Source: a virus
Length of the DNA stretch: 64,000 nt
IMG/VR virus record: IMGVR_UViG_3300007734_000761
Coordinates: 112,312-176,311 of that record
Reading direction: 5' to 3' (one strand)
Numbering within the stretch: position 1 is the first letter of the stretch; every line of letters begins with the position of its first letter. Positions 1 through 34,518 of the stretch are shown piece after piece. Both the position numbers and the translations under genes were made by a program. The notes under the pieces are model-generated. The model ran no database searches. It had not been told where the DNA came from and saw only the letters and a list, made by a program, of their open reading frames with translations.

Positions 1-3000
1 ATGAACCAGATGTGCCTGATGAACCTGAACTTCCACTTGTACCAGAAGATCCACTAGATCCTGAGGTGCCAGATGAACCTGAAGTGCCAGAAGAACCACT
101 AGTACCTGATGTACCATTTACTCCGCTTATACCTGATGTTCCTGATGAACCTGATGTTCCTGATGAACCTGATGTTCCTGATGAACCAGAGCTACCTGAA
201 GTTCCTGATGAACCTGATGTTCCACTAGAACCACTTGTTCCACTTGATCCTGAACTACCACTAGTACCTGAAGATCCACTTGAGCCACTAGTACCTGAAG
301 AACCTGAAGTACCTGAAGAACCACTAGTACCTGAACTACCACTTGAGCCAGATGTTCCTGAGCTACCTGATGAACCTGATGTACCTGAAGATCCACTAGT
401 ACCTGAAGAGCCTGAAGTACCTGAAGAACCAGAGCTACCTGAAGTACCTGATGAACCTGATGAACCTGAAGTACCACTTGAACCTGATGTTCCTGAACTG
501 CCAGAAGTACCTGAGCTTCCACTTGAACCTGAAGTTCCTGAACTGCCAGAAGTACCTGAGCTTCCACTTGAACCTGAAGTTCCTGAACTGCCAGAAGTAC
601 CTGAGCTTCCACTTGAACCTGACGTACCACTTGAGCCAGAAGTTCCAGAAGTTCCATTAACTCCACTTATACCTGAAGTGCCTGAAGATCCGGATGTACC
701 TGAACTGCCACTTGAGCCAGATGTACCTGAAGAGCCACTTGAACCTGATGTTCCTGATGAACCTGAAGATCCTGAAGTACCTGATGAACCGCTTGTTCCA
801 CTAGAACCAGATGATCCTGATGTACCTGAACTGCCAGAAGTACCACTTGAACCTGAAGAACCACTTGTTCCACTTGAACCACTTGAACCTGAGGTGCCAC
901 TTGATCCGCTTGTTCCGCTAGAACCCGATGTTCCTGATGAACCACTTGTTCCTGATGAACCGCTTGAACCTGAAGTACCTGATGTACCATTTACTCCGCT
1001 TATACCTGAAGTACCTGAAGATCCTGATGTACCTGAAGAACCTGATGTTCCTGAAGATCCACTTGAGCCAGATGTTCCTGATGAACCTGAGCTGCCTGAG
1101 GTTCCTGAAGAACCGCTAGTACCGCTTGAACCTGAACTTCCACTTGTTCCACTTGAACCTGATGAACCGGAAGTACCACTACTACCGCTTGTACCTGATG
1201 AACCTGATGATCCTGAAGTACCAGATGAGCCACTTGTTCCTGAAGAACCAGATGTCCCTGAACTTCCTGAAGAACCTGATGTTCCACTTGAACCACTTGT
1301 TCCTGATGAACCAGAGCTGCCTGATGTTCCTGAAGAACCTGAGGTTCCTGATGAGCCACTTGTTCCTGATGAACCTGAAGATCCTGAAGTACCTGATGAA
1401 CCGCTTGTTCCTGATGAACCACTAGTACCTGAAGTACCATCTACTCCACTTATACCTGATGTACCACTAGATCCTGAAGATCCTGAAGTACCTGATGAAC
1501 CACTTGAGCCAGATGTTCCTGATGAACCTGATGAACCGCTAGTACCACTTGAACCTGAAGTACCAGATGAACCTGATGTTCCAGAAGAACCACTAGTACC
1601 TGATGATCCACTAGATCCTGAAGTACCAGATGAACCTGATGAACCTGAGGTTCCTGAAGAACCGCTAGTTCCACTTGAACCTGAGGTTCCACTAGAACCC
1701 GATGAACCTGAAGTTCCTGAACTTCCTGATGAACCTGATGTGCCGCTTGAACCGCTAGTACCTGATGAACCTGATGTTCCTGATGAGCCACTAGTTCCTG
1801 AAGAACCGCTTGAACCTGAGGTGCCACTTGAACCACTAGATCCTGAAGTGCCAGATGAACCTGAAGAGCCTGAAGTACCAGATGAACCTGACGTTCCAGA
1901 TGAACCTGAAGTTCCAGATGTACCATTTACACCACTTATACCTGATGTACCACTAGATCCTGAAGATCCTGAAGTACCTGATGAACCTGAAGAACCTGAT
2001 GTTCCTGAAGAACCTGAGGTTCCTGAAGAACCGCTTGAGCCAGAGGAACCTGAAGATCCGCTTGTTCCACTTGAACCTGAAGACCCAGATGTTCCTGATG
2101 AACCTGAACTTCCTGAAGTGCCACTTGAACCAGATGTTCCGGATGAACCACTTGTACCACTTGAACCTGAAGAACCTGAGGTTCCAGATGAACCTGATGA
2201 TCCTGAAGTGCCACTACTTCCACTAGTTCCTGAAGAGCCTGAAGTACCAGATGATCCTGAAGATCCTGAAGTTCCACTTGAACCTGAAGAACCTGAGGTG
2301 CCACTTGAACCTGAAGAACCTGAGGTACCACTTGAACCAGAAGTTCCGCTTGAGCCACTAGTACCTGACGAACCGCTAGTGCCTGATGTACCATCCACAC
2401 CACTTATACCTGAAGTACCTGAGCTACCTGAAGTTCCGGATGAACCACTTGAACCAGAAGTTCCGGATGAACCTGAAGTACCACTAGAGCCTGATGTTCC
2501 TGATGAACCACTTGAACCACTTGTTCCGGATGATCCGGAAGTGCCTGATGAACCACTAGTACCTGACGATCCGCTTGAACCAGACGTTCCTGATGAACCA
2601 CTTGAACCAGAAGTTCCTGAAGAACCGCTAGTTCCACTTGATCCTGAAGTGCCACTTGAACCTGAAGATCCTGATGTTCCTGATGAACCATTTGTTCCAC
2701 TAGAACCAGATGATCCTGATGTGCCAGATGAACCTGAACTACCACTTGTTCCACTTGAACCTGAAGAACCTGAAGTTCCAGATGAACCTGATGAGCCACT
2801 GGTTCCTGAAGAACCAGAAGTTCCGCTTGAGCCACTAGTACCTGATGTACCGTCAACTCCACTTATACCTGAAGTACCTGAGCTACCGCTCGTACCTGAT
2901 GAACCACTTGAGCCAGATGTACCACTAGATCCTGAAGAACCTGATGTTCCACTAGAACCGCTAGTTCCAGATGAGCCTGATGTACCTGAACTTCCACTAG

Positions 3001-6000
3001 TTCCTGATGAACCACTTGAACCACTTGAACCAGAAGTTCCTGAAGAACCACTTGTTCCACTTGAACCACTTGTTCCTGATGAACCTGACGTTCCAGATGA
3101 ACCAGATGTCCCTGAACTTCCTGAAGAACCTGATGTTCCACTTGAACCTGAAGTACCAGATGAACCTGAACTTCCACTAGTTCCTGAAGAACCAGAAGAT
3201 CCTGAAGTACCTGATGAACCTGACGTTCCAGATGAACCTGACGTTCCAGATGAACCTGAGCTACCTGCGGTTCCTGAAGAACCACTTGTCCCAGATGAAC
3301 CAGAAGTACCTGACGTACCATCAACTCCACTTATACCTGAAGTGCCGCTTGAACCTGAAGTACCAGATGAACCTGAACTTCCGCTAGTTCCTGATGAACC
3401 ACTTGAGCCAGATGTACCAGAAGAACCGCTTGTTCCACTTGAACCTGATGTTCCTGAAGAACCTGATGAACCCGAGGTACCTGAACTGCCACTAGTACCT
3501 GATGAACCTGAAGTGCCAGATGAACCTGATGAACCTGAAGTTCCTGAAGAACCTGAGCTGCCTGATGTGCCAGATGAACCTGAGGTTCCTGAAGAACCAC
3601 TAGAACCAGACGTTCCTGAGCTGCCTGATGTACCACTAGAACCGCTAGTGCCTGATGAACCTGAAGATCCTGAAGTGCCTGATGAGCCACTTGAACCACT
3701 TGTACCACTTGAACCTGAAGATCCTGAAGTACCTGATGAACCAGAGGTGCCACTTGAGCCGCTAGTTCCGGATGAACCAGAAGTACCTGACGTGCCATCT
3801 ACTCCACTTATACCTGAAGTACCTGAGCTGCCTGAACTACCTGATGTGCCTGAACTACCAGAGCTGCCTGATGTGCCTGAACTGCCGCTTGAACCAGATG
3901 TACCTGATGAACCACTAGTACCTGAACTACCTGACGTACCACTTGAGCCAGAAGATCCTGAAGTACCAGAACTACCTGACGAACCACTAGTCCCACTTGA
4001 ACCTGAACTTCCACTTGTTCCTGATGAACCTGAACTTCCTGACGTACCACTTGAGCCAGAAGTGCCAGAACTACCTGATGTTCCTGATGAACCACTTGAG
4101 CCAGATGTACCTGATGTGCCATCTACTCCACTTATACCTGAAGTACCACTACTTCCTGAGGAACCAGAAGTACCTGATGAACCACTTGTTCCTGATGAAC
4201 CTGAAGTGCCACTTGATCCACTAGAACCTGATGTTCCTGAAGAACCTGACGTACCACTTGAGCCGCTTGAACCACTTGTTCCACTTGAACCTGATGAACC
4301 TGAAGTACCACTAGAACCAGATGTTCCACTACTACCACTTGTACCATCAATCCCAGAAGTACCTGATGAACCACTTGTGCCTGAACTACCTGATGTTCCT
4401 GATGTTCCGTTTATACCTGAAATTCCAGAAGTTCCTGAGCTGCCACTTGAACCTGAAGTACCACTAGAACCAGAACTACCTGATGTTCCTGAACTTCCTG
4501 AAGAACCTGAGGTTCCACTACTACCACTTGTACCTGATGATCCTGAACTACCTGATGTTCCTGAACTGCCGCTCGTTCCTGATGAACCTGATGTACCTGA
4601 AGATCCTGAAGTGCCTGATGAGCCTGAAGATCCTGAAGTACCGGAACTACCTGAAGTGCCACTTGAACCTGATGTACCACTTGAACCACTAGTGCCTGAG
4701 GATCCTGAAGTACCTGATGAGCCACTAGAACCAGAAGTTCCTGAACTACCTGAAGTTCCTGATGAACCTGATGAACCATCAACTCCACTTAAACCTGAAG
4801 TACCCGAAGTACCAGATGAGCCTGATGAGCCACTAGTACCTGATGATCCACTTGTTCCTGAAGAACCTGAACTACCTGACGTGCCACTTGAGCCAGATGT
4901 TCCCGAACTTCCACTTGAACCACTTGTACCTGATGAACCTGAGCTTCCTGAAGTACCAGACGAACCTGATGTTCCTGAACTTCCGCTAGTTCCACTTGAA
5001 CCTGAACTTCCACTAGTTCCTGAAGAACCGCTTGAGCCAGATGTTCCCGAACTTCCACTAGTTCCTGAAGAACCGCTTGAGCCAGATGTACCTGATGAAC
5101 CACTTGTTCCACTACTTCCTGAAGTGCCAGATGAGCCTGAGCTACCTGAAGTACCAGATGAACCACTTGTTCCTGAGCTTCCGCTTGTACCGGATGAACC
5201 TGATGAACCGCTAGTTCCACTTGAACCTGAACTTCCGCTAGTTCCTGAAGAACCACTTGAGCCAGATGTACCTGACGAACCGCTTGTTCCTGAAGAACCA
5301 CTTGTTCCACTTGAACCAGATGAACCAGATGTTCCTGAGCTTCCACTTGTTCCACTTGAACCTGAAGTACCTGAAGAACCACTTGAACCTGAAGTACCTG
5401 AAGAACCACTTGAGCCAGATGTGCCTGATGAACCGCTAGTTCCTGATGAACCAGATGTTCCACTTGTTCCGCTTGAACCTGATGTTCCTGAAGTGCCAGA
5501 TGAACCGCTAGTACCTGATGAACCACTAGAACCTGATGTTCCACTTGAACCACTTGTACCTGATGAACCAGATGTGCCTGATGAACCTGAGCTGCCACTT
5601 GTACCAGATGAGCCAGATGTTCCTGATGAACCTGACGTGCCTGAACTACCCGAAGTGCCAGAAGAACCAGATGTACCATTTGTACCTGAAGTACCGTTTG
5701 TGCCAGATGTTCCACTAGTTCCTGAAGTTCCTGAACTACCACTAGTTCCTGAGGTTCCTGAACTGCCACTAGTACCTGATGTTCCACTTGTGCCAGATGT
5801 ACTAAAATCAGCTATTGGAGCATATGTAAATTGTCCAGAACTAGTATCATATGTTATAAAATAACCTGATGAAGAGTTTTCACTTACTCCTAAAACTATA
5901 AAAGGATTTGAACCTGAAATTAATAATGATCCAGTAATTACAGCTGAACCTGAAAACGGAAATCCTGCTCCTCCACTACCTGAAGAAGCTATTCCATAAC

Positions 6001-6178
6001 TAACTAATCCTGTTGCTGGATCATATGTTAAATTATATGAGGCTGAAAGATCATTTTCTACTCCAATAAGTGTTAATGGGTTTGAGCCTGAAATTATTAC
6101 ACTCTCACTAATGCTACCTGTAATAGATAAATCATTAGATAAATACCACCCTAACTGTTCTGGTCTTACTCTTGCCAT
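1..6178 (-). CDS. Giant Gly-X-Ser (collagen-like/PPII) repeat protein, probable virion fibre/whisker; 3'-partial, >=2059 aa
   Basis: ATG at 6178 (MARVRPEQLGWYLSNDLSITGS...), 1 nt after the stop of 6180..7409. Frame stays open to the window edge. After ~125 aa it reads G-T-S/G-S-S triplets for ~5.8 kb. Missing from the ORF track because there is no stop in the window. Confidence 0.9.
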   Translation of the reverse strand, partial: MARVRPEQLGWYLSNDLSITGSISESVIISGSNPLTLIGVENDLSASYNLTYDPATGLVSYGIASSGSGGAGFPFSGSAVITGSLLISGSNPFIVLGVSENSSSGYFITYDTSSGQFTYAPIADFSTSGTSGTSGTSGSSGTSGTSGSSGTSGTSGTSGTNGTSGTNGTSGSSGTSGSSGTSGSSGTSGSSGTSGSSGSSGTSGSSGTSGSSGTSGSSGSSGTSGSSGTSGTSGSSGTSGTSGSSGTSGSSGTSGSSGSSGTSGSSGSSGTSGSSGTSGSSGTSGSSGSSGTSGSSGTSGSSGTSGSSGSSGTSGSSGSSGTSGSSGSSGTSGSSGTSGSSGTSGSSGSSGTSGSSGTSGSSGTSGSSGSSGTSGSSGTSGSSGSSGTSGSSGSSGTSGSSGTSGSSGTSGSSGSSGTSGSSGSSGTSGSSGTSGSSGSSGTSGSSGTSGSSGSSGTSGTSGLSGVDGSSGSSGTSGSSGTSGSSGSSGTSGSSGTSGSSGTSGSSGTSGSSGTSGSSGSSGTSGSSGTSGSSGTSGSSGTSGSSGSSGTSGSSGTSGSSGSSGTSGSSGSSGTSGSSGSSGTSGISGINGTSGTSGSSGTSGSSGTSGIDGTSGSSGTSGSSGTSGSSGSSGTSGSSGSSGTSGSSGTSGSSGSSGTSGSSGTSGSSGTSGSSGSSGTSGISGVDGTSGTSGSSGSSGTSGSSGTSGSSGTSGSSGSSGTSGSSGSSGTSGSSGSSGTSGSSGSSGTSGSSGTSGSSGTSGSSGSSGTSGSSGSSGTSGSSGSSGTSGISGVDGTSGTSGSSGTSGSSGTSGSSGTSGSSGSSGTSGSSGSSGTSGSSGSSGTSGSSGTSGSSGTSGSSGSSGTSGSSGTSGSSGSSGTSGSSGSSGTSGSSGTSGSSGTSGSSGSSGTSGSSGTSGSSGTSGSSGSSGTSGSSGSSGTSGSSGTSGISGVDGTSGTSGSSGTSGSSGTAGSSGSSGTSGSSGTSGSSGTSGSSGSSGTSGSSGSSGTSGSSGTSGSSGSSGTSGSSGTSGSSGTSGSSGTSGSSGTSGSSGSSGSSGTSGSSGTSGSSGTSGSSGTSGSSGSSGTSGSSGSSGTSGSSGTSGISGVDGTSGTSGSSGTSGSSGTSGSSGSSGTSGSSGSSGTSGSSGSSGTSGSSGSSGTNGSSGTSGSSGSSGTSGSSGTSGSSGTSGSSGSSGTSGSSGSSGTSGSSGTSGSSGTSGSSGSSGTSGSSGTSGSSGTSGSSGSSGTSGSSGTSGISGVDGTSGTSGSSGTSGSSGTSGSSGTSGSSGSSGTSGSSGSSGTSGSSGSSGTSGSSGTSGSSGTSGSSGSSGTSGSSGSSGTSGSSGTSGSSGTSGSSGSSGTSGSSGSSGTSGSSGSSGSSGSSGTSGSSGTSGSSGSSGTSGSSGSSGTSGISGVNGTSGTSGSSGTSGSSGTSGSSGSSGTSGSSGSSGTSGSSGSSGTSGSSGTSGSSGTSGSSGTSGSSGSSGTSGSSGSSGTSGSSGTSGSSGTSGSSGSSGTSGSSGSSGTSGSSGTSGSSGTSGSSGTSGSSGSSGTSGSSGSSGTSGSSGSSGTSGISGVDGTSGTSGSSGTSGSSGTSGSSGSSGTSGSSGTSGSSGTSGSSGSSGTSGSSGTSGSSGSSGTSGSSGTSGSSGTSGSSGSSGTSGSSGTSGSSGSSGTSGSSGSSGTSGSSGTSGSSGSSGTSGSSGSSGTSGSSGTSGSSGTSGISGVNGTSGTSGSSGSSGTSGSSGTSGSSGTSGSSGTSGSSGSSGTSGSSGSSGTSGSSGTSGSSGSSGTSGSSGTSGSSGSSGTSGSSGSSGTSGSSGSSGTSGSSGTSGISGVNGTSGTSGSSGTSGSSGSSGTSGSSGTSGSSGSSGTSGSSGTSGSSGSSGTSGSSGTSGSSGTSGSSGSSGTSGSSGSSGTSGSSGTSGSSGTSGSSGSSGTSGSSGSSGTSGSSGTSGSSGTSGSSGSSGTSGSSGSSGTSGSSGTSGSSGTSGSSGSSGTSGSSGTSGSSGTSGISGVNGTSGTSGSSGTSGSSGTSGSSGSSGTSGSSGSSGTSGS
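477..620. repeat. Three near-perfect 45-bp tandem copies inside the Gly-X-Ser gene
   Basis: cttgaacctga(t/a)gttcctgaactgccagaagtacctgagcttcca at 477, 522 and 567. Confidence 0.85.
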
Positions 6179-6179
6179 C

Positions 6180-7409
6180 TTATTGGAATTTTCCTATTAT
6201 TAATACAGAATCTGGGTTAGGGCTTGAAGGTGAATTTAATTCAAATCCTAAACCAGACAATGATGTGTTAAACGTAAATACTATATCATTTCCAATTTGT
6301 TGTAAATTAAAGAAATTAGGTTCTGTGTTAATTCCGTTTATTAATACAATAAATTGATTTTTTCCTGTTGGTGGTAATGGGTCAGGAGCAACCATAATTT
6401 GTTTACCATATAAAGTAGCTTGATTCGTACTAGTTACAATAGCTAAAGCTGAATTATTTGTATTTAAATATTGTGATACTGCTGCAAATGATGCTGGGGT
6501 TATTATTGGTGGACTTAGTGGATTCACATTCGTTATTTTTGGTTTTTTTACATTTACTGGAATTATTAAATCATCTACTGCATATTCGTTAAAAATTACT
6601 TGACCTTTACTTACATATGCCATATCATGTGATAAATATGCATTTATAGTGTCGGGTATTAAATAACCATGTAATTTCATTGTGATTTTACTAACAACAG
6701 TTCTTTCTTCTTCTGCTGAGTATTGAACAGATGTTGGAAAAGACTCTATATTTACTCTAAAATAATAACGATTTTTATCTCCCCAATAACTATTTTCAGC
6801 ATATTGTACAGCTTCAAGTATTCTATTGGATTGTTCTACAAAATCTGCATAAATATTTAATTCATATGTAATAGTAACATAATCTGGGTGTGCTACCACC
6901 ATCATTTCTTTTACTGGTTGGCGATTATTTAACACATTAAAATTATCATAAGCATTTTTATTGGTAAATTGTCTTTCAAAAACATGAACGTTTTGAGCTA
7001 AATTACCATCAAGATTTCTACCTACATTACGATTTTTTGTTACATCTGTTCTGTTAACTACAATAAGAGGAGCAATAATTTTACCACTTACATCACGTAA
7101 AAATCCTTCTTTTTGCATTGCTACCCATCTTTCAGGATAAGCATATATTACAGGAACATCAATAAGTTCTGTATTACTGTATACTGTAGGTTTAATGTTA
7201 TTTTTAATATGTTCTAATACAGCCGTATCAATATCAATTAATTTAACACTAAAATTTTTCTCTCTAGTGCCTTTTTGTGATACTTTTAAAGCTCTATTAG
7301 GTTTACTAACCATAGGCTCTTTACCATAACTAGCAAGTTCATAAGGTACAATTTTATCTTGTACTTCTTGTGCGGGAGTTTTAGGTATAGGTTTTCTTAC
7401 TTGAGCCAT
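6180..7409 (-). CDS. Tail terminator/sheath stabilizer (T4 gp15-like) with C-terminal extension
   Basis: VPVIYAYPERW and HPDYVTITYELNIY motifs; follows the neck genes. Confidence 0.65.
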   Translation of the reverse strand: MAQVRKPIPKTPAQEVQDKIVPYELASYGKEPMVSKPNRALKVSQKGTREKNFSVKLIDIDTAVLEHIKNNIKPTVYSNTELIDVPVIYAYPERWVAMQKEGFLRDVSGKIIAPLIVVNRTDVTKNRNVGRNLDGNLAQNVHVFERQFTNKNAYDNFNVLNNRQPVKEMMVVAHPDYVTITYELNIYADFVEQSNRILEAVQYAENSYWGDKNRYYFRVNIESFPTSVQYSAEEERTVVSKITMKLHGYLIPDTINAYLSHDMAYVSKGQVIFNEYAVDDLIIPVNVKKPKITNVNPLSPPIITPASFAAVSQYLNTNNSALAIVTSTNQATLYGKQIMVAPDPLPPTGKNQFIVLINGINTEPNFFNLQQIGNDIVFTFNTSLSGLGFELNSPSSPNPDSVLIIGKFQ

Positions 7410-8023
7410 TATTGTATTTTATAAGGTAAAATATTAAGTTTAATAGGTCTAGTCATTATTGTATCTAATTCAAATACTAAACTTTGACCTCTTTTATTTA
7501 AACTACTACTTTCAAAATTAGAAGCACCATAGATATATTGATCATCATTACCGAAATCAATCCAGTTTTCGTTTACATTATAAACTTCATAGTATCTTTC
7601 TCTATCTAAAATAATGTCTCCTACTTCAGGCATTACTCCAATTTTAAGCATCATTTCATGTACAAACCAGAATTGAGATTTTTGTGTATTACTTACACCA
7701 TAATCTTCTACTATTTGAAGTTCATCACCTCTATCAATATAACATTTAATAAGAACAGGTTGATAGTACCATTTTGAAGTACTTTCACCATAGATATTTG
7801 TAGATGAATTAGTAGCACTTATTTTATAATAAGGCACTTGCATTGACATTAATCTTTTATAAGCTTCTGTAATAGAAGTTACTTGAAAATCAATGTCATT
7901 ACCTGGAGCAAAGGGCATAGGTCTAGCTAATCCATCTGGTTGAGATGGTAAAGCTTCATAATCACCGGGGGTGGTAACTTTTTGGCCTGGTACTCTGAAA
8001 AATGCTCCTGGTTTGTTAGTCAT
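7409..8023 (-). CDS. Neck/head-closure protein (T4 gp14-like)
   Basis: NIYGES..K.Y, PEVGDII...RYYEV motifs; synteny. Confidence 0.65.
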   Translation of the reverse strand: MTNKPGAFFRVPGQKVTTPGDYEALPSQPDGLARPMPFAPGNDIDFQVTSITEAYKRLMSMQVPYYKISATNSSTNIYGESTSKWYYQPVLIKCYIDRGDELQIVEDYGVSNTQKSQFWFVHEMMLKIGVMPEVGDIILDRERYYEVYNVNENWIDFGNDDQYIYGASNFESSSLNKRGQSLVFELDTIMTRPIKLNILPYKIQ

Positions 8024-9624
8024 TATAGAATGTAAATAGGTGAAGGTAAAGGTATATTATTCATAATAGCATTGTTAGCATCATCTTCAGCTTTTTGTCT
8101 TTCTAACTGTTTTTGTTTTGAAGTTTCATCTAATAAAACTCTAAGTTCTTCTAATAATGCTGCTTTATCTGCTTGAGATTGACTCATCAAATCACTACTA
8201 GACATAGCTCCTACTTTTGGAACTTCTGCTGCAGGATATTTACCTCTTGAATAACCTAAAATCTCTTTACAAATTGCTAATACATACCTCATAATCCATG
8301 ATTTACCTATTGAATTAATTCTAGAATATGTTGGGTTTGCATAAGGTACATTAGATACATCTGTTATGATAGGTTTATCATACGGAGGAACGTTACTATT
8401 TTGATTTTGGTTTTGTTGTAAAACATCACTTTCTTTAGCAAACTCAAGCCATAATTTATTTCCATTTCCTGGAGGAATAGGGAATATAGTAAGTATATTA
8501 TTATTTACACTAAAACTATATCCATTGTATCTTACATCCATCTGCATATTCCATTCTTGTATTCTTTGTATGTCAAAATACACAGGCCACTGAATGTATG
8601 AATTATATCCATATCCACCATAAAATCCAAACATATCAGCGGTAGCACCTACACCTCCTAAACCAGGGTATGGGCTTGTCATCCATGCTTGAGCAGGAGG
8701 AGCTTGATAAAATACTCTAACTACTACAGGATTATCTTTTAAACTAATAAGACTTTCACTAACAAACAATGTTTTTAAGTCATACGTTTGTTGACCATCT
8801 ATTAGGTCAATACTCGCGCTATATACTGGAATATCGCGTATGAAAGCTTGGTCCGCATAATTATTGGCGATTCTTATAGTTCCACCTAAAGTTCGGTCAA
8901 TAAGTCGAGTATTCATATTATAATCTGACTTATAAGCTATATATTGTACTACTTGAGTTGTAGGTGTTATACTAGCATTAGGATCTACATCTAAAATATA
9001 ATTATTATTTACATAACTAGCAGATACATAAAAATAATCTGCAGAATTAATAAAAGGAAGAGGATTTTTTACAACAAAATAAACATTTCCACCTTTCATG
9101 TAAGTATATTGGGGTAAAAAATTACCACACTGATTTTCAATGCCAAAAGATTGTACTAAACTGAAGTCAGCTCTAGACATTGATGGAATAACACTAGCAG
9201 AAACTACATAAAATATACTTCCACTATTAATAGCCCATTGCATTTCTGGGGCCGATGTAAAATCTGAAGCTACAGCTACTTCTGGTGGGCTAAACGATAA
9301 AGAAGCATTAAAGTAACTTACATTATATTCACATAAAAAACTATCTGTGTAACTACCTTCTATTGATAAGTAGTTTTCTCTTACTTTATAAAGATAAACT
9401 TCATTACCATAAGTAGTTACTGCTTCTTCCATAGCAGCATATATTTGAAAATCTACAAGTTCAACGTCAACTACACCAAAACCTAAACGTCGGGTTACAT
9501 AAAAACAAGCACGTTGTGCATCGTTTTGAAACGTTGGATCATTATCATAGTAACCGAAAGGAGTATTACCAGGAACTGGTAATAGATCGGATGTGGATAG
9601 GGCGTAATTGTAATCTTGAGACAT
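8023..9624 (-). CDS. Neck/head-tail adaptor protein (T4 gp13-like)
   Basis: RRLGFGVVDVEL...QI and WIMRYVLAICKEILGYSRGKY motifs. Confidence 0.75.
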   Translation of the reverse strand: MSQDYNYALSTSDLLPVPGNTPFGYYDNDPTFQNDAQRACFYVTRRLGFGVVDVELVDFQIYAAMEEAVTTYGNEVYLYKVRENYLSIEGSYTDSFLCEYNVSYFNASLSFSPPEVAVASDFTSAPEMQWAINSGSIFYVVSASVIPSMSRADFSLVQSFGIENQCGNFLPQYTYMKGGNVYFVVKNPLPFINSADYFYVSASYVNNNYILDVDPNASITPTTQVVQYIAYKSDYNMNTRLIDRTLGGTIRIANNYADQAFIRDIPVYSASIDLIDGQQTYDLKTLFVSESLISLKDNPVVVRVFYQAPPAQAWMTSPYPGLGGVGATADMFGFYGGYGYNSYIQWPVYFDIQRIQEWNMQMDVRYNGYSFSVNNNILTIFPIPPGNGNKLWLEFAKESDVLQQNQNQNSNVPPYDKPIITDVSNVPYANPTYSRINSIGKSWIMRYVLAICKEILGYSRGKYPAAEVPKVGAMSSSDLMSQSQADKAALLEELRVLLDETSKQKQLERQKAEDDANNAIMNNIPLPSPIYIL

Positions 9625-22739: not shown

Positions 22740-24089
22740 TTAAATAAAAAGTGTTAAATCTCCATCATACCACACGTCTTCTAGATGGTATTTATCATTA
22801 AGTAAAGACTCAGCAACATATATCCCATGAGCTCCACTTACTGTAATTCCTCTTGCACTTAGTGCATCTCCTACAAAATAAACATTTGGATATTTAGTAA
22901 GACTTAAATTTTTGTAATTAACTAATGGTTCGGGTGAAAGATATTTTACTTCAGGTACATAAACTCCCCAATCATCACCAAAATCAAATACTTTATTCAT
23001 ATCATCAATAAAGTTTTTAATGTAAGTCCAATATTCACCCATAGCTTCTTCAATTTGAGATGTTTCTGCAACAGGATGACTGCTAACCATTTCACCTTCT
23101 GATGTAATACCTGCTACTCTTGATGGGCTATAGTACAATCCCGTTCCATCTTTTTGTAATTTAGACACAACATTACGACTCCATTCAAATGGATTTTCAA
23201 TGCCTTTGATTTCCATAATAATGCCAAAATTAGTCATATCATTTCTGTATTCTTCGCCTTTCTTTGCATGGCCATTATAAGTAACATCACCATAAGTTTC
23301 TTCTACTGCAACATAAGCAGCATTATTGTTAGTACAAAATGAACGTAAACTAACATCATCAAATTTTTGGTACAATTTAAAATCATAACTTACATCAATT
23401 AATTTCTGAAAGTAATGTTGTGGTGCTTCAAATCGAACTCCAATTTGAACTGATTTAGGTTCATCTGGTAATTGATATTGATTAGCTAATTGTTGAGCAA
23501 AATCAATTCCTGACTTGCCTACTGCAAATATAAGTTCTTCATAATCTATTTCTAGATTTAACTCACTGTTTAAAATATCACAAACTATAAGTTCTTGAGT
23601 AAAATCAATACTAGTTACTTTAGTTTCCCAATAAAAGTTTACACCTTTATTAACTAAATATTGATACCAGTTTTTAGCAATTTCATGAAGATAATTACTT
23701 CCAATGTGATATACAGGAAACATTCTTAAACCAAAATATGGTTTAATAAATTCAGGTTCTTCTTGAGGATTTGACAAGTAAATTTCTGATTCTTTAGGAT
23801 GAAAACGTCTAAAGTTTTCTATTACTTGATCCATTAATTCCATTGCTTTTTTCTCACCACAGTATTTTGATAATTGACCACCAATTGCTGTGTGGTAAGT
23901 TAATTTACCATCACTCCATCCTCCTGCTCCTAACATTCCTTCCATTACTTCTTCAGGAAGTCTGTTATGGGGATCTTTACCCATATCAATAATAGTAATA
24001 TCTTTTCCAGGATAACCATTATCTACTAATTTAGTTGCTGCATTGATGCCTGCAACACCTGCTCCTACAATAACTATTTTCATGCTCAT
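22740..24089 (-). CDS. FAD/NAD(P)-dependent oxidoreductase
   Basis: IVIVGAGVAG Rossmann motif, GAGGWSDGKL, VYFVGD. Confidence 0.85.
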   Translation of the reverse strand: MSMKIVIVGAGVAGINAATKLVDNGYPGKDITIIDMGKDPHNRLPEEVMEGMLGAGGWSDGKLTYHTAIGGQLSKYCGEKKAMELMDQVIENFRRFHPKESEIYLSNPQEEPEFIKPYFGLRMFPVYHIGSNYLHEIAKNWYQYLVNKGVNFYWETKVTSIDFTQELIVCDILNSELNLEIDYEELIFAVGKSGIDFAQQLANQYQLPDEPKSVQIGVRFEAPQHYFQKLIDVSYDFKLYQKFDDVSLRSFCTNNNAAYVAVEETYGDVTYNGHAKKGEEYRNDMTNFGIIMEIKGIENPFEWSRNVVSKLQKDGTGLYYSPSRVAGITSEGEMVSSHPVAETSQIEEAMGEYWTYIKNFIDDMNKVFDFGDDWGVYVPEVKYLSPEPLVNYKNLSLTKYPNVYFVGDALSARGITVSGAHGIYVAESLLNDKYHLEDVWYDGDLTLFI

Positions 24090-24098
24090 AACTAAAAT

Positions 24099-24127
24099 AT
24101 TATAATAAATTATTCATATTAAACCAA
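24099..24127 (-). promoter_or_regulatory. Sigma70-like promoter TTGGTT-N17-TATAAT
   Basis: Exact 17-nt spacing; -10 box lies 9 nt above the ATG at 24089. Confidence 0.6.
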
Positions 24128-24382
24128 ATAAATTTTTAATTTAAGTTTACCATTTCCTTTAATAGCTCTATGCCATTTGTGTTTAGGAATGTAAATTGGT
24201 TTATTTAATGAAGTTGGTAATTCGTTGTCTAATTGAATTTTCCAATTTGTTTCACCAATTATTTCAATTGTTCTGTCTTCATTATCACGATGCCACATCA
24301 ATTCTATAGGATCAATGTTTTCATCAAATTCCCTAATAATATATTTGTCAGTAATTTCTAAATCTTTATACGGCTTTATCAT
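24119..24382 (-). CDS. Small cupin-like protein
   Basis: WHRD.EDR and IYIPKHKWHRAIKG. Confidence 0.6.
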   Translation of the reverse strand: MIKPYKDLEITDKYIIREFDENIDPIELMWHRDNEDRTIEIIGETNWKIQLDNELPTSLNKPIYIPKHKWHRAIKGNGKLKLKIYLV

Positions 24383-24791
24383 CTGTAAGAGGACCGCCTA
24401 CAACCCAAGCATTACAAGTTCGAGCTGCAGCACATTTAAACTTTAAAAACCTACAGTATCCTAATTGACCTGCTTTAATAACATCAAATGGATCTTCTGT
24501 ACCTTCATCACTACCTATTCCTTTAGCTATGCAATCTAATGTTTTTGTTGTAATATCAAATGCAGCACAGTTACCACAACGAGAAGATTTAGCTTCTTCT
24601 ATAGAATCAAGTTTCCACATGTCTACTTTATCCTGCCAAAATTTATCGTTTGGTTCATTTGGGTTTAGAGGACCATATCCATACTCATTAATTGCTTTTT
24701 GTCTGTTTTGAAGATTTAATTCAATATTTTGAGTGGGGGCAGGACATTTACTTATTTCTGCTTCGTTTAATATATTAATTAGTTTTATCAT
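24366..24791 (-). CDS. Cys-rich putative internal head protein
   Basis: Leader MIKLINILNE; CGNC...C..C...C. Confidence 0.6.
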   Translation of the reverse strand: MIKLINILNEAEISKCPAPTQNIELNLQNRQKAINEYGYGPLNPNEPNDKFWQDKVDMWKLDSIEEAKSSRCGNCAAFDITTKTLDCIAKGIGSDEGTEDPFDVIKAGQLGYCRFLKFKCAAARTCNAWVVGGPLTDDKAV

Positions 24792-25108
24792 TTTTTATCT
24801 TTAATTAACAATTCACCTAAAACTTCTAAACGACCAACTTCTCTTTGAAATTCAATTTGAGACATGTCTAAAGAGATTTTTTTATAAGTTTCCTCGTATT
24901 CTTTTTTTGCTTTTTCTAAATCTAATTTACCTTCACTTGCCTTTTTGTAATAGGGTAATTTAACTTTAAAGTGGTGCCAAGTTAAAAGCGCTAAACCTCC
25001 TTTTTTGTGAGCATTATCAGCAATTTTTTTAGCTCCACTCATACGAGTTTGACTAAAATCTTCAAATTGGTTTTTTGCTTCTACTAGTATGTCTTTAAAT
25101 TTAATCAT
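24788..25108 (-). CDS. Putative internal head protein
   Basis: Leader MIKFKDILVE. Confidence 0.6.
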   Translation of the reverse strand: MIKFKDILVEAKNQFEDFSQTRMSGAKKIADNAHKKGGLALLTWHHFKVKLPYYKKASEGKLDLEKAKKEYEETYKKISLDMSQIEFQREVGRLEVLGELLIKDKK

Positions 25109-25464
25109 TTTTTTAATCGTTGAGTTTTTCTTTTAGATGCTTCTTTTCTGGCAGTGATGTATGTTAGTCCTTTTTTTAAACGAGCTTTTACTTCAGGATT
25201 TTTGGCTTTACTATATGCTGCTCTTACACGTTGATGAATTAAGTTAATAATCTGTGATTGGCGAGCATGGCTTTTTGCTTTAAAAGATGATTTAGACAAT
25301 GTATTTTTAATGTCTTGAACAGTTTTAAATTTAACACCTACAGTATCTGTTGGATCTTCATCTGTGTATAAACGGCGACTTGATCCTTTTGGCTTTTTAC
25401 CTGTGCCTACTTTAGGATCAGCCTCATTTAAAGATTCTTTTAGAAGATCTACTAGTTTAATCAT
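25105..25464 (-). CDS. Basic putative internal head protein
   Basis: Leader MIKLVDLLKE-SLNE; highly Lys/Arg-rich. Confidence 0.6.
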   Translation of the reverse strand: MIKLVDLLKESLNEADPKVGTGKKPKGSSRRLYTDEDPTDTVGVKFKTVQDIKNTLSKSSFKAKSHARQSQIINLIHQRVRAAYSKAKNPEVKARLKKGLTYITARKEASKRKTQRLKK

Positions 25465-26189
25465 TTTGTTTTACCCCATGTTTTACCTTTACCTGGTCTT
25501 TTACATTGAGAAGGTGTAGGTCTACATGATGGATATTTTGATCTTACCTCACCTTTTTTACGGCCACAAGGTTTACATTTTCCATCACGACAAGTATTAC
25601 AATCTACCCATCCTCCTGTTTTACCTGGTGCTCCTTTACGTTTAAACCAAGTTCTTAATGTTTCTTTTTTAGCTTCATCTAATTCAGATTTTCTATTATT
25701 AATATAAGTTTCAATATCTTCGGCTTTATAGCCTAATAGTTGACCTATTCTTCTAGCATCTTCATCAGTAGCTTTATATGACAAATAACCATTGTATTTT
25801 TCTGCTATGTCTTTTAACTCATTAGCTTCATTTTCTGCTCCTTTTACATAAAAAACATAAGCTCTATGGGGATTTGAAGGAACTTTAATAGTACCTAAAT
25901 CAAACTTTTTTACAATATCCCAAAAATTTTTTTCAGGAAAATCCATGCCATCTAAAACCATAAAACCTAATTTTCGTTTTCCATCTAAAACAGTTTTTAT
26001 AGAACCTTTATCCTCGTATGCTTCTTCAGCACTAATTTCTTCTTTTAGTCCCTTCCAAATATTTCCTTTACGACATCTAACAATAGCACCAGACTTATAT
26101 GCTGAAGGTTTACTGTAACGACGATCTGCTATGCGTTTACAGCGATCTTCAGTAAGTACTTCAAGTAATATGTTAGTAAGTTTAATCAT
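25461..26189 (-). CDS. Multi-segment putative internal head protein
   Basis: Leader MIKLTNILLE; three segments split by LKE and LDE; basic Cys-rich C-terminus. Confidence 0.6.
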   Translation of the reverse strand: MIKLTNILLEVLTEDRCKRIADRRYSKPSAYKSGAIVRCRKGNIWKGLKEEISAEEAYEDKGSIKTVLDGKRKLGFMVLDGMDFPEKNFWDIVKKFDLGTIKVPSNPHRAYVFYVKGAENEANELKDIAEKYNGYLSYKATDEDARRIGQLLGYKAEDIETYINNRKSELDEAKKETLRTWFKRKGAPGKTGGWVDCNTCRDGKCKPCGRKKGEVRSKYPSCRPTPSQCKRPGKGKTWGKTK

Positions 26190-27064
26190 ACAGAAATTGA
26201 AGTTGATATGTCACCTGTAGGTATTAACTTACCACCCATATTTTCTATTTTTTGTTTCATTTCTTCAAAGTTTTTTGGTATTACACTTACTTTAAAACTT
26301 TTTGGGTTTTCTTGAACAAATTTAAAAAAATCATTTAATGTAGGAAATAAACCTGTTATATTAGGACGATTTTTATAATCATATTTTTTTAGTTCAACAG
26401 CTTCTCCGGGTATTTTTAAGTACTGTTTTTTTTCTAAAAATGGTTTTAAAAATCCATATTTAGTTGCTCTAAATACTGTTATTTTTTTTAATTTACCATT
26501 AAAATAAAAAATTCCTAATTCCTTTTTTATTCCATTTTCTACACTTCCATATTGTACTGCTAGTCTTCTTTGTGCTTCTCTAGGTAATTCTATAGTAAAA
26601 TTTTCTGTTACCGAAAAATCTATTTTATTTACGTTTTTATCTATTTTTATTTTTCTTAAGGCTTTAGATAAATCAATGCCTTGAGTCAAATCAGAAGTAG
26701 GAGCTGATGAAACTGTAAACTCATCATCTATGTCTACTCCTAAGTCTTTTGCTTTAATAGCTGCACCTTCTACAGGCATTATAATGCCATTCTGCAATAA
26801 AGCTTTTATAAACGTACTAGCGTTACCTGTTCCTTTAATGTTGAATACTTTTTTAACATCATCTACATTGAAATGATTTATGTCTTCTAAAGATTCCATT
26901 TTCAAAACAATGTCTTGAAATCTAGGTCCTGAGCCTCTAACATTAGATATTTTACTTTCCCAGTCATCTGTTAAAGTGTAGAACTTCTTTATCTGTGGCA
27001 TTTCAGCCAAATGTCTTTTTACAGCTTCTACTAGTATTGCTTTTATTAAATTTCTTTTTTCCAT
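26186..27064 (-). CDS. Hypothetical protein, probable internal head protein
   Basis: N-terminal ILVE/LAE; internal DDEFTVSSAP resembles the polyprotein tag. Confidence 0.5.
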   Translation of the reverse strand: MEKRNLIKAILVEAVKRHLAEMPQIKKFYTLTDDWESKISNVRGSGPRFQDIVLKMESLEDINHFNVDDVKKVFNIKGTGNASTFIKALLQNGIIMPVEGAAIKAKDLGVDIDDEFTVSSAPTSDLTQGIDLSKALRKIKIDKNVNKIDFSVTENFTIELPREAQRRLAVQYGSVENGIKKELGIFYFNGKLKKITVFRATKYGFLKPFLEKKQYLKIPGEAVELKKYDYKNRPNITGLFPTLNDFFKFVQENPKSFKVSVIPKNFEEMKQKIENMGGKLIPTGDISTSISV

Positions 27065-27065
27065 A

Positions 27066-27698
27066 TTACCAAAATCCTGAGTATGATGATTTTAATCCTA
27101 ATAATTTAGCGTAGCGAGGTAAACGACAACTCCAGTAACTTGCTTTTGTTCTGTCTTTTTTATTAGGACAATCGTGACGTTTTGAAAAAGCAGCTCTTGC
27201 TTTAGAGTTATTAATTTTAGCTGACAAACCAGTAGTGTCACCAAATGATACTTTTTTAACTCCACCACCTGGTTTTCTTACATAAACATAGAATTTTTTA
27301 GATCCACCACGTTTTGGTTTACCAATTGGAGGTATTTTTTTCTTTTTATCTGCTTCTTCTAAGTCTACTTCTTCTAATAGTAAGTCTATTGGAACTAATT
27401 TACCATTGTAAAAATCAAACGTACCAATTTCTGTTTCTTCTAAAAGTTGCTTGTCAGCTCCATCGAAAGTTATTTGTTTATTTTCATGTAACCATCTAGC
27501 TTCTTGCCATAAGTCAAGAAAAGATTCACTGCCATATCTAAATGTATTTTCAGTAATAGGAAGTTTTTGATAAACATGATATAACATGTTAGGACTAATT
27601 TTTTCTGGGTTAGTCGATTCTGTTAGTAAAGGAGCTTTAGGTCTGGCGCAAGTTGGACATCCTGATCCTTCTAACAATATGTCTTTTAACTTAATCAT
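27066..27698 (-). CDS. Putative internal head protein with basic C-terminal domain
   Basis: Leader MIKLKDILLE; LTE and LEE sites; KKFYVYV...KVSFGD...RHDC...YWSC. Confidence 0.6.
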   Translation of the reverse strand: MIKLKDILLEGSGCPTCARPKAPLLTESTNPEKISPNMLYHVYQKLPITENTFRYGSESFLDLWQEARWLHENKQITFDGADKQLLEETEIGTFDFYNGKLVPIDLLLEEVDLEEADKKKKIPPIGKPKRGGSKKFYVYVRKPGGGVKKVSFGDTTGLSAKINNSKARAAFSKRHDCPNKKDRTKASYWSCRLPRYAKLLGLKSSYSGFW

Positions 27699-30075: not shown

Positions 30076-30415
30076 TTTTATATTCTGTTACTTCGGCGCC
30101 TAATACATTAGGCATTTTTTTACGGATATTTTCTAAAATCTTTTTAAGTCTTTCAGAAGTTACTTTACCTTCTTTAGCACTTACCTTTATTCCTGTTGAG
30201 TCTTTAATCTCAAATTTAAAAGGTGGTTCAGACATTTTTGATTCTTTAGCTAATTTAGAATAGTTACTAGGATTGCTTAACCATTTCATAGCACTATTTC
30301 TTAAACCTTCTGATTTAAATACAAAACCTGGTGTTAGTACCTCTACTACTTCCTTTTCTTCAGAAATAATACCAGCTAACGCCTGCATTCTTTTTATTTC
30401 AACTGCTGATTGCAT
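30068..30415 (-). CDS. Hypothetical protein with N-terminal RMQALAGI motif
   Basis: EIKRMQALAGIISE matches the scaffold C-terminus. Confidence 0.55.
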   Translation of the reverse strand: MQSAVEIKRMQALAGIISEEKEVVEVLTPGFVFKSEGLRNSAMKWLSNPSNYSKLAKESKMSEPPFKFEIKDSTGIKVSAKEGKVTSERLKKILENIRKKMPNVLGAEVTEYKND

Positions 30416-30416
30416 A

Positions 30417-30761: not shown

Positions 30762-30776
30762 AATTATAATATTAGT

Positions 30777-34505: not shown

Positions 34506-34518
34506 ACATATAAATATG

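What the first reader, a model, noticed from the sequence alone, without database searches (positions are those of the whole stretch)
1..6178. Hidden giant proline-free Gly-X-Ser protein with about 640 uninterrupted triplets
Seen: a minus-strand ORF missed by the track. From ~5800 to the edge every third residue is Gly, X is almost always Thr/Ser and Y almost always Ser, with no Pro. Codons are diversified, which suggests selection on the protein. The N-terminal ~125 aa has two ISGSNP..(I/L)GV......Y..TYD...G repeats typical of fibre shafts. The gene directly follows the neck/tail-terminator genes. Inference: an extremely long whisker or fibre (roughly 0.5 micrometre if a collagen-type helix at ~0.29 nm per residue), or a polyproline-II bundle as in Gly-X-X springtail antifreeze proteins. 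Its hydroxyl-dense surface could be glycosylated.
Basis: partly seen in the sequence, partly recalled or inferred. Interest (0 to 1): 0.75.

Follow-up and report, generated by a model that had tools for sequence, protein, structure and literature searches.

The report
Giant proline-free collagen-like phage fibre
An uncultured T4-like freshwater phage encodes a 3,464-residue fibre protein whose shaft is 1,045 glycine-serine/threonine-serine collagen-type triplets with no proline and no charge pairs. It is probably a three-chain, sugar-coated thread nearly a micrometre long, a collagen chemistry for which I found no published study.

Summary
The minus-strand ORF is real and runs 4.2 kb beyond the window edge. 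The full gene (G000:C1:108095-118489) encodes 3,464 aa:
- a 128-aa N-terminal fibre-motif domain;
- 997 unbroken Gly-X-Y triplets, one Gly-to-Ser slip, then 48 more triplets (X = Ser/Thr, Y = Ser; no Pro, Lys, Arg or Glu);
- a 198-aa C-terminal domain found at the end of thousands of phage fibre proteins.

Synonymous sites between repeats are fully randomised, yet the three-residue register and a strict Thr-spacing grammar are kept, so selection acts on the protein. A related phage has an orthologue in which the same Gly-Ser-Ser shaft continues in frame into canonical Pro/Gln collagen and an S74 trimerising chaperone. The C-terminal 230 aa model as a homotrimer (0.84, best control 0.00). A protein-serine O-heptosyltransferase-family enzyme (TIGR04414, above cutoff) lies 8 kb downstream.

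Best reading: a trimeric, probably glycosylated, collagen-like virion fibre, about 0.9 micrometre long if fully helical. Triple-helix formation and glycosylation are inferred, not shown. The total length rests on one assembly.

This scan has noted the same class on other DNA (at least 24 genomes). I found no paper on it.

The parts
5795..6178 (-). N-terminal domain, aa 1-128. It has a conserved first ~60 aa (presumed virion-docking adaptor), two ISGSNP..GV..Y..TYD..G..Y repeats and a GFPFSGSAVITGSLLISGS fibre motif.
   Evidence: Translation. The first 180 nt are 91% identical to the orthologue in L013. The same N-terminus heads a 186-aa protein in L012. The motif is shared with fibre proteins that carry collagen, S74 or other distal domains.
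2..5794 (-). The part of the Gly-(Ser/Thr)-Ser shaft inside the window (aa 129-2059). The shaft continues outside the window to aa 3266 (G000:C1:108692-118105).
   Evidence: A 300-aa sample scores Pfam PF01391 Collagen at 152 bits, E 3e-45 (cutoff 27.2). Synonymous sites are saturated.
4775..4795 (-). First of 19 punctuation motifs G(I/L)SG(V/I)(D/N)G, here at aa 462-468. Twelve lie inside the window. Spacing is 96-210 aa, and each motif is followed by GTSGTS.
   Evidence: The same motif (GISGVDG / GISGVNG) recurs in the L013 orthologue although the repeat shows no DNA homology.
6180..7409 (-). 409-aa upstream neighbour, 1 nt from the fibre start codon. Possibly a gp15-like tail terminator.
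   Evidence: Conserved synteny neighbour -> fibre(s) -> sheath -> tube in 19 IMG/VR loci. The family profile has T4 gp15 as top PDB hit, but weakly (E 0.077). The fold model is of low confidence (pLDDT 54).
7409..8023 (-). 204-aa protein of no family, gp14-like by position only.
   Evidence: no significant family.
8023..9624 (-). 533-aa protein, probably a gp13-like neck protein.
   Evidence: phrog_211 head-tail adaptor, E 1.6e-6. T4 gp13 neck protein, E 0.003, aa 437-497.
3..5864 (+). Antisense open frame (Pro-x-x). It is a mirror artefact of the GGN-WSN-WSN codon pattern, not a gene.
   Evidence: Both of its ends lie inside the minus-strand gene, it has a GTG start and it has no non-repeat domain.

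Best explanation
The gene encodes a giant homotrimeric virion fibre of a distant T4-like phage. The phage is 176 kb, comes from fresh or estuarine water and probably infects Bacteroidota.

Proposed mechanism (inferred):
1. Three chains associate through the 198-aa C-terminal domain, which ends in a small beta-sandwich knob.
2. From there the 3,138-residue Gly-(Ser/Thr)-Ser region zips into a collagen-type triple helix, about 0.9 micrometre long at 0.286 nm per residue.
3. The shaft has no proline and no Lys-Glu/Asp pairs. The helix is therefore proposed to be stabilised and protected by dense O-glycosylation of its roughly 2,000 Ser/Thr hydroxyls. The candidate enzymes are the phage's own Aah/TibC-family glycosyltransferase (fused to a GT4 domain) and the neighbouring methyltransferases.
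4. The conserved ~60-aa N-terminus docks the fibre on the particle. The site is probably near the neck, because the gene follows the gp13/gp15-like genes.
5. The distal knob makes first, reversible contact with the host. The thread enlarges the capture radius in dilute water.

Shown here: the sequence anatomy, selection on the register, the family context and the in-silico trimer. Inferred: the triple helix, glycosylation, the attachment site and the function.
For: 1. The gene is real and under selection.
- The ATG lies 1 nt after the upstream gene's stop, and all neighbouring genes are on the same strand.
- Codon usage matches the genome's.
- Codon identity between repeats is at chance level, 0.377 against 0.372. 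Yet there is only one register fault in 1,046 triplet positions.
- GTS triplets are separated by exactly 1 or 2 GSS triplets 374 times, with 3 exceptions. Shuffles give 76 runs of 3 or more, never fewer than 60.

2. Collagen signature. PF01391 scores 152 bits against a cutoff of 27.2.

3. Orthologue L013:9286-19026 (3,246 aa).
- It has the same N-terminus, 91% nt identity over the first 180 nt.
- It has 717 unbroken Pro-free G(S/T)S triplets.
- These are joined and interleaved in the same chain with canonical GPQGAQGAV collagen blocks.
- It ends in an S74 chaperone like that of this phage's 797-aa collagen fibre.

4. Trimer. The last 230 aa as three copies score ipSAE 0.84; the best of 3 controls scores 0.00. 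The mark was reached by 20 of 30 solved pairs and 1 of 23 single chains. Runs agree in at least 95% of contacts, with pLDDT of at least 86. Residues 2-32, the Gly-X-Ser part, are in the interface in all copies.

5. C-terminal domain.
- It matches phrog_17490 at E 8e-45.
- 3,743 cluster representatives carry it, and among the 150 best hits the match lies at the C-terminal end.
- The C-terminal beta-sandwich (about aa 115-190 of the 200-aa model) resembles distal domains of tailspikes and tail fibres (7eea Z 8.3, rmsd 2.0 over 66 residues; R2 pyocin fibre Z 5.9).

6. Family. Shorter relatives have the same N-terminal motif and 45-70 Pro-free triplets. 13 of 80 loci around the glycosyltransferase carry Pro-free S/T-rich Gly-X-Y ORFs, including a third giant of 3,744 aa.

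7. Glycosylation context.
- The 758-aa GT4+GT9 protein scores 214 bits on TIGR04414, above the cutoff of 200.
- FkbM-type and CmcI-like methyltransferases lie beside it.
- In L041 the enzyme gene lies right next to the giant fibre gene.

8. Phage tRNA-Ser(UGA) and tRNA-Thr(UGU) read the dominant repeat codons TCA (51%) and ACA (47%).

9. Pieces of the repeat and both gene ends recur exactly in contigs of independent runs. At least 8 studies hold 58% or more of its 31-mers.
Against: - Ser and Thr at X and Ser at Y are poor triple-helix formers in host-guest peptide studies (established knowledge: Persikov and Brodsky scales).
- The shaft has none of the stabilisers known from bacterial collagens: no Pro and no Lys/Arg/Glu (compare PMC11923368).
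- In the published case of stabilisation by glycosylated Thr, the Thr is in the Y position, while here Thr is in X (PMC11923368 cites that work).
- The glycosyltransferase is conserved in at least 142 contigs, including loci whose nearby fibres are Pro-rich or where no Gly-X-Y ORF lies within 10 kb. It is therefore not specifically tied to this fibre.
- No contig of another run spans the repeat, so the length rests on this assembly and on the similar length of L013.
- The attachment site is unknown.
- The trimer score is a model's own confidence. It was obtained with three copies, outside the calibration.
Confidence: 0.6

Rival explanations
1. The fibre is a trimer only at its ends. The Gly-Ser/Thr-Ser region is a flexible, non-helical, mucin-like or serine-rich-repeat-type stalk. 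It is heavily O-glycosylated and acts as an entropic tether or as a hydrated, protease-proof coat.
For: 66% of shaft residues are Ser or Thr, with no Pro and no charges. A protein O-glycosyltransferase cassette lies nearby. The residues have low intrinsic triple-helix propensity (established knowledge).
Against: A disordered stalk does not need Gly at exactly every third residue. Here the register survives complete synonymous randomisation with one fault in 1,046 positions. The repeat is fused in frame to canonical collagen in L013. The model places the triplets in three-chain contact.
Confidence: 0.25
2. The shaft folds back on itself at the Asn-Gly/Asp-Gly punctuation motifs. This would give an antiparallel polyglycine-II/polyproline-II helix bundle, as in snow-flea antifreeze protein or the gp38 adhesin sandwich, and so a much shorter and thicker rod.
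For: Gly-X-X periodicity with small residues. There are 19 motifs with (D/N)-G, a good turn former. PGII domains exist in phage adhesins (my own knowledge; see also bioRxiv 10.1101/2023.11.25.568672, listed).
Against: Segments between motifs are 96-210 residues long and of unequal length. Known bundles use helices of about 10-13 residues. The L013 orthologue continues into canonical collagen and an S74 trimer chaperone. The C-terminal model is a parallel trimer.
Confidence: 0.05
3. The length is an assembly artefact, or the region is not translated as read: a collapsed or expanded repeat, a chimera of strains, or the plus-strand frame is the true gene.
For: No contig from another run spans the whole repeat. 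The exact protein is absent from the 15-billion-protein collection. One 45-nt unit repeated 3.3 times is 99% identical and could vary in copy number.
Against: No exact repeat of 101 nt or more exists, so short reads can resolve the region. Exact pieces and both ends recur in independent runs. Two further giants of 3,246 and 3,744 aa were assembled independently. The frame is intact over 10.4 kb and has matched N- and C-terminal domains. The plus-strand frame has no start context and no domains.
Confidence: 0.05

Closest known systems
[quoted passage not shown]
   Same: Gly-X-Y stalk rich in hydroxyl residues. Thr is O-glycosylated with methylated sugars. A trimeric C-terminal beta-sandwich knob nucleates the trimer. 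The number of triplets varies widely between strains (established knowledge; glycan reference cited in PMC11923368).
   Different: BclA triplets are mostly Gly-Pro-Thr, with Pro in X and Thr in Y, in tens of triplets. Here there is no Pro, Thr is in X, Ser is in Y, and there are 1,045 triplets. No sequence or clear fold relation of the C-domains was found.
Phage and prophage collagen-like tail-fibre proteins (EPclA/EPclB of E. coli O157:H7, PMC3368898; PHROG tail-fibre families 6320 and 5073)
   Same: Phage fibre with a Gly-X-Y shaft between an N-terminal virion-binding part and a C-terminal trimerising part. The shaft scores on the same PHROG and Pfam profiles. This phage's own 797-aa neighbour is a canonical member.
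   Different: Those fibres are Pro-rich and/or about 22% charged, and tens to a few hundred triplets long. This one has no Pro, no Lys/Arg/Glu and 1,045 triplets.
TibC-TibA and Aah-AIDA-I (bacterial autotransporter heptosyltransferases, PMC4358343)
   Same: The C-terminal half of the phage enzyme passes the TIGR04414 equivalog cutoff (214 bits against 200). That family hyper-glycosylates serines of a long repetitive extended adhesin in the cytoplasm.
   Different: The known substrates are beta-helical autotransporter passengers, not Gly-X-Y repeats. Here the enzyme is fused to a GT4 domain and encoded by a phage. No substrate has been shown.
Glycosylated-threonine cuticle collagen of the vent worm Riftia (Mann et al. 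1996, cited in PMC11923368)
   Same: A very long, micrometre-scale collagen that relies on glycosylated hydroxyl residues rather than hydroxyproline.
   Different: The Thr there is in the Y position and Pro is still present. It is an animal extracellular matrix protein.
T4 fibritin (wac) neck whiskers
   Same: A trimeric fibre whose gene adjoins the neck genes 13-15. It has a C-terminal trimerisation nucleus.
   Different: Fibritin is a 53-nm alpha-helical coiled coil. No sequence relation was found. Neck attachment of the present fibre is only a guess from gene order.

Membership tests
Collagen-like triple-helix proteins (Pfam PF01391 / IPR008160) | Gly at every third residue over many consecutive triplets | tested here: met
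   997 + 48 triplets with one Gly-to-Ser fault
Collagen-like triple-helix proteins (Pfam PF01391 / IPR008160) | Score above the Pfam gathering threshold | tested here: met
   152.3 bits against 27.2 for a 300-aa sample
Collagen-like triple-helix proteins (Pfam PF01391 / IPR008160) | Sequence-encoded stabilisers: imino acids and/or Lys-Glu/Asp pairs | tested here: not met
   0 Pro, 0 Lys, 0 Arg, 0 Glu and 8 Asp in 3,138 residues. Rules as summarised in PMC11923368.
Collagen-like triple-helix proteins (Pfam PF01391 / IPR008160) | An adjoining trimerisation domain | tested here: met
   In silico only: homotrimer ipSAE 0.84, best control 0.00. The orthologue carries an S74 chaperone.
Collagen-like triple-helix proteins (Pfam PF01391 / IPR008160) | A physical triple helix (CD maximum at 225 nm, cooperative melt, protease-resistant core) | not testable with these tools
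   Needs recombinant protein
Substrate of a BAHT-type protein O-heptosyltransferase | A cognate TIGR04414-family enzyme encoded nearby | tested here: met
   214.2 bits against a cutoff of 200, about 8 kb downstream. The enzyme gene lies right next to the giant fibre gene in L041.
Substrate of a BAHT-type protein O-heptosyltransferase | Sugar attached to the Ser/Thr of this protein | not testable with these tools
   Needs mass spectrometry. Co-occurrence is not specific: the enzyme is also present where the flanking fibres are Pro-rich.
Polyglycine-II / polyproline-II helix bundle (snow-flea antifreeze type) | Short Gly-X-X helices of about 10-13 residues joined by regular turns | tested here: not met
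   Unbroken runs of 96-210 residues between motifs, at irregular spacing
Phage fibres with the phrog_17490 C-terminal domain | Significant match of the C-terminal ~150-200 aa, located at the protein's end | tested here: met
   E 8e-45. 3,743 cluster representatives at E <= 0.001; the match is C-terminal in the 150 best hits. Invariant K91, F93, H97, P98, E112, G113, E115.
T4-type neck whisker (fibritin-like attachment) | Binds the gp13/gp14 collar | not testable with these tools
   Gene order only, next to weak gp13-like and gp15-like genes

The most novel reading that the evidence does not exclude
A proline-free, charge-free Gly-(Ser/Thr)-Ser sequence really forms a collagen triple helix about 0.9 micrometre long. 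It would be held together by phage-directed O-glycosylation, or by an unknown Ser/Thr hydrogen-bond code: Thr every 2 or 3 triplets, with a 10-triplet periodicity that matches the 30-residue repeat of a 10/3 helix. That would be a fourth way to stabilise collagen. It would also be, to my knowledge, among the longest fibres proposed for a phage.
Probability: 0.4. Interest if true: 0.85.

Novelty: new variant of a known kind. Interest (0 to 1): 0.7.

Why it matters
Collagen stability is currently explained by imino acids, by Lys-Glu/Asp clamps or, in a few cases, by glycosylated threonine in the Y position. This protein has none of the first two. Yet it keeps more than 1,000 triplets in perfect register under clear purifying selection.

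It therefore gives a direct, expressible test of whether glycosylation or a Ser/Thr code alone can hold a triple helix.

For phage biology it points to micrometre-scale 'fishing-line' fibres and phage-encoded virion glycosylation in abundant, uncultured freshwater T4-like phages. Both would change estimates of adsorption radius and host encounter.

A practical note: the shaft has no Lys or Arg, so tryptic proteomics would not see it. That may be one reason why it has gone unnoticed.

Tried and rejected
- Plus-strand ORF as the gene: rejected as a mirror frame.
- tblastn of the N-domain against 50,697 phage records: no match.
- PDB sequence search with the C-domain: nothing. Foldseek against the PDB: no hit at E <= 0.001.
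- Fold of the 409-aa neighbour: pLDDT 54, too poor to search with. It shows no similarity to the immuto 'head completion protein'.
- PHROG and Pfam searches of the 409-aa and 204-aa neighbours: nothing significant.
- Orthologous alignment of the repeat with L013, for dN/dS: impossible. Every register gives about 66.5% nt identity, and codon identity is at chance level.
- RNA evidence. Metatranscriptome contigs (X15) lie on the stretch mostly at 90-95% identity. Many chimeric joints point to relatives or low complexity, so neither expression nor strand is shown.
- No contig in X2, X3 or X6 spans the repeat, so the length is not independently confirmed.
- Exact look-up of the protein and of its antisense frame in the protein collection: neither is present.
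- Shared length idea. The three giants hold 3,138, 3,028 and 3,039 Gly-X-Y residues, which might suggest a selected length. I do not press this. The sample is three, and earlier scan notes report other lengths.
- Specific co-occurrence of the glycosyltransferase with Pro-free fibres: not shown. The enzyme is also present next to Pro-rich fibres.


Full report
1. WHAT IS THERE

The window is G000:C1:112312-176311 of a 176,311-bp IMG/VR virus record that CheckV rates complete. The flagged ORF starts at an ATG at window 6178, one base after the stop of the upstream gene on the same strand, and runs off the window.

In the whole record the ORF ends at base 108095 and encodes 3,464 aa. Its anatomy is as follows.
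- aa 1-128: a non-repeat N-domain.
- aa 129-3266: Gly-X-Y. There are 997 unbroken triplets, one Gly-to-Ser position, then 48 more triplets. X is Ser 568, Thr 432, Ile 21, Val 18. Y is Ser 1,019, Asn 16, Asp 8. There is no Pro, Lys, Arg or Glu at all.
- aa 3267-3464: a C-terminal domain.

Nineteen punctuation motifs G(I/L)SG(V/I)(D/N)G interrupt the monotony every 96-210 residues.

GC content is 46-50% in the repeat and about 30% in the flanks. This follows from the GGN/WSN codons.

2. IS IT A GENE, AND ON WHICH STRAND?

The minus frame has a tightly coupled start, non-repeat domains at both ends, and a C-domain that matches phrog_17490 at E 8e-45. The 3,099-codon plus-strand frame (Pro-x-x) begins and ends inside the repeat and has no domains. 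The variable bases sit on position 3 of the minus-frame codons.

Codon usage for Gly, Ser and Thr follows the rest of the genome, with extra TCA.

The key statistic is codon identity. Where two positions of the repeat encode the same residue, they use the same codon 37.7% of the time at any lag. The chance expectation is 37.2%. The repeat therefore carries no residual DNA-level homology, and what is conserved is the protein.

Despite that, the triplet register has one fault in 1,046 positions. Thr triplets also obey a grammar. GTS is almost never adjacent to GTS and is followed by exactly one or two GSS (190 and 184 times, 3 exceptions). Shuffled sequences give about 76 longer runs, never fewer than 60.

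Thr placement also shows a 10-triplet periodicity beyond that grammar (z = 4.1 against shuffled spacings). The commonest spacing word is 2-2-3-3. Thirty residues is the axial repeat of a 10/3 collagen helix. I note this as a hint only, because an ancestral 90-nt unit would give the same result.

3. ASSEMBLY

No exact repeat of 101 nt or more exists in the gene, and only 80 of 10,341 55-mers are repeated. Short reads can therefore resolve it.

At least eight studies of river, lake, estuary, freshwater and sediment metagenomes hold 58% or more of the stretch's 31-mers. Contigs of two independent runs match pieces of the repeat and both gene ends with zero mismatches. None spans the repeat. The total length is thus unverified in this genome.

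4. CONTEXT

The phage is a distant T4-like myovirus.
- Its gp23-type capsid protein is 49% identical to that of Flavobacterium phage immuto.
- It has a T4-type portal, prohead protease, terminase and PhoH.

The gene order on the minus strand is:
- capsid protein, then PhoH;
- the 533-aa protein (T4 gp13 neck protein, E 0.003);
- the 204-aa protein;
- the 409-aa protein (profile top hit T4 gp15, only E 0.077);
- the giant fibre;
- a canonical 797-aa Pro/Gln collagen tail fibre with an S74 chaperone;
- a ConA/LamG-like protein;
- a 2OG-Fe(II) oxygenase;
- an uncharacterised 327-aa protein;
- FkbM-type and CmcI-like methyltransferases (one of the FkbM hits is weak);
- an uncharacterised 315-aa protein;
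- a 758-aa GT4+GT9 fusion;
- tail sheath, tail tube and a baseplate protein.

The C-terminal half of the fusion passes NCBI's equivalog cutoff for the Aah/TibC autotransporter O-heptosyltransferase (214 bits against 200). That family hyper-glycosylates protein serines (PMC4358343).

The phage's tRNA set includes Ser(UGA) and Thr(UGU). These read the commonest Ser and Thr codons of the repeat.

5. RELATIVES

The locus after the 409-aa gene is a swap site.
- In L012 (neighbour gene 95% identical) the same N-terminus heads a 186-aa protein with no Gly-X-Y.
- In L013 (89% identical) it heads a 3,246-aa protein. That orthologue has 717 unbroken Pro-free G(S/T)S triplets with the same GISGV(D/N)G punctuation. 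It then passes twice, through the same short GVS-IT-GPQ junction, into canonical GPQGAQGAVGPLG collagen blocks and back in register. It ends in an S74 trimerising chaperone.
- The first 180 nt of the two genes are 91% identical, but the repeats share only chance codon identity. The distal parts are therefore exchanged cassettes or have diverged far faster.

Other related proteins:
- Shorter proteins with the same N-terminal motif carry 45-70 Pro-free triplets.
- The glycosyltransferase has full-length homologues in at least 142 IMG/VR contigs.
- Of 80 loci fetched, 38 have Gly-X-Y ORFs in the flanks. Of these, 13 have ORFs that are Pro-free and at least 80% Ser/Thr at X and Y.
- One locus (L041) holds a third giant of 3,744 aa with different end domains. 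There the glycosyltransferase gene is right next to it, with one 299-aa ORF between.

The C-domain occurs in 3,743 cluster representatives. The 150 best hits range from about 130 to 3,200 aa, the match lies at their C-terminal end, and most lack Gly-X-Y.

6. STRUCTURE

The C-domain monomer folds with pLDDT 83.
- The C-terminal beta-sandwich (about aa 115-190 of the 200-aa model) resembles distal domains of tailspikes and tail fibres: Pam1 tailspike Z 8.3, rmsd 2.0 over 66 residues; R2 pyocin fibre Z 5.9; AP22 gp53 Z 5.8. The tool's own note says this is borderline.
- Foldseek gave nothing at E <= 0.001.

Three copies of the last 230 aa (10 triplets plus the C-domain) gave ipSAE 0.84.
- The best of 3 controls scored 0.00.
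- The mark was reached by 20 of 30 solved pairs and 1 of 23 single chains.
- Runs agree in at least 95% of contacts, with pLDDT of at least 86.
- The job used three copies and my own alignment, outside the calibration.
- The Gly-X-Ser residues 2-32 are in the interface of all three copies.

This supports a parallel trimer. It does not show one.

7. INTERPRETATION

Four points favour a trimeric collagen-type rod over a disordered stalk or a fold-back PPII bundle:
- the strict three-residue register, kept against complete synonymous drift;
- the Pfam collagen score (152 bits);
- the in-frame fusion to canonical collagen and an S74 chaperone in an orthologue;
- the predicted C-terminal trimer.

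The difficulty is chemical. Ser and Thr are weak helix formers, and the shaft lacks Pro and the Lys-Glu/Asp clamps that a recent survey finds in collagens of all domains of life and viruses (PMC11923368). The same paper notes that (Gly-Pro-Thr)10 becomes helical only when the Thr is galactosylated. A neighbouring protein-serine glycosyltransferase with methyltransferases makes glycosylation the obvious candidate stabiliser. However, the enzyme is not specific to loci with Pro-free fibres, and no chemistry has been done.

If fully helical, the shaft would be 3,138 x 0.286 nm, about 0.9 micrometre.

My estimates are:
- about 0.9 that this is a real giant fibre gene;
- about 0.6 for the whole proposed mechanism, a trimeric collagen-type shaft that is probably glycosylated;
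- about 0.25 for a non-helical glycosylated tether.

8. NOVELTY

Collagen-like phage fibres are known (PMC3368898). Prokaryotic collagen-like chains of up to about 2,000 triplets are on record (PMC11923368). Five literature searches found no paper on Pro- and charge-free Gly-Ser/Thr-Ser collagens, or on phage BAHT-type enzymes.

Earlier notes of this scan describe the same class in at least 24 other genomes, with similar readings. They are unchecked AI notes. I tested the glycosyltransferase lead myself.

I class the finding as a new variant of a known kind.

Noticed in passing
L013:9286-19026 (+), IMGVR_UViG_3300042894_003667: Orthologous 3,246-aa fibre in which Pro-free Gly-Ser-Ser blocks and canonical GPQGAQGAV collagen blocks alternate in one chain. 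The junctions recur (GVS-IT-GPQ twice, GAAGTSGSS twice). The chain ends in an S74 chaperone. It looks like a fusion of this phage's two neighbouring fibre genes.
   Followed up: partly
L012:11232-11792 (+), from the same metagenome as L013: The same ~60-aa N-terminus heads a 186-aa protein with no Gly-X-Y, followed by other fibre genes. The site after the gp15-like gene is a fibre-cassette swap point, and variants co-occur in one sample.
   Followed up: partly
G001 (IMGVR_UViG_3300042564_004221) 23846-35089 (-), loci L116/L117: A third giant Pro-free fibre of 3,744 aa, with different N- and C-terminal domains and two ~83-aa non-collagen inserts. The GT4-GT9 glycosyltransferase gene and a 299-aa ORF lie convergently right next to its 3' end. 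The three giants hold 3,138, 3,028 and 3,039 Gly-X-Y residues, which may be coincidence.
   Followed up: partly
Whole shaft, window 2-5794 (-) and beyond: Thr grammar: GTS is separated by exactly 1 or 2 GSS. There is also a 10-triplet (30-residue) periodicity with z = 4.1, equal to the axial repeat of a 10/3 collagen helix. The cause could be structural or historical and is unknown.
   Followed up: partly
G000:C1:42909-44619 (outside the window): A cluster of 8-9 phage tRNAs includes Ser(UGA) and Thr(UGU). These decode TCA and ACA, the dominant Ser and Thr codons of the giant gene. TCA is 51% of Ser codons in the repeat and 27% elsewhere.
   Followed up: partly
L010:2168-2755 (-), G000:C1:104167-104754: A 195-aa 2OG-Fe(II) oxygenase (PF13640; PKHD/YbiX-like, below NCBIfam cutoffs) lies two genes after the canonical Pro-rich collagen fibre. 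It might be a prolyl hydroxylase for that fibre.
   Followed up: no
L010:2795-3688 (-), G000:C1:104794-105687: A 297-aa ConA/Laminin-G-like lectin-fold protein lies directly after the collagen fibre gene. It is possibly a fibre-tip or accessory adhesin.
   Followed up: no
Window 474-622: The only recent duplication in the shaft: a 45-nt unit repeated 3.3 times at 99% identity. It is a likely site of copy-number variation.
   Followed up: no
Shaft, aa 129-3266: The shaft has no Lys or Arg, so it would stay a single tryptic fragment of about 3,100 residues or more. Standard virion proteomics would miss it.
   Followed up: no
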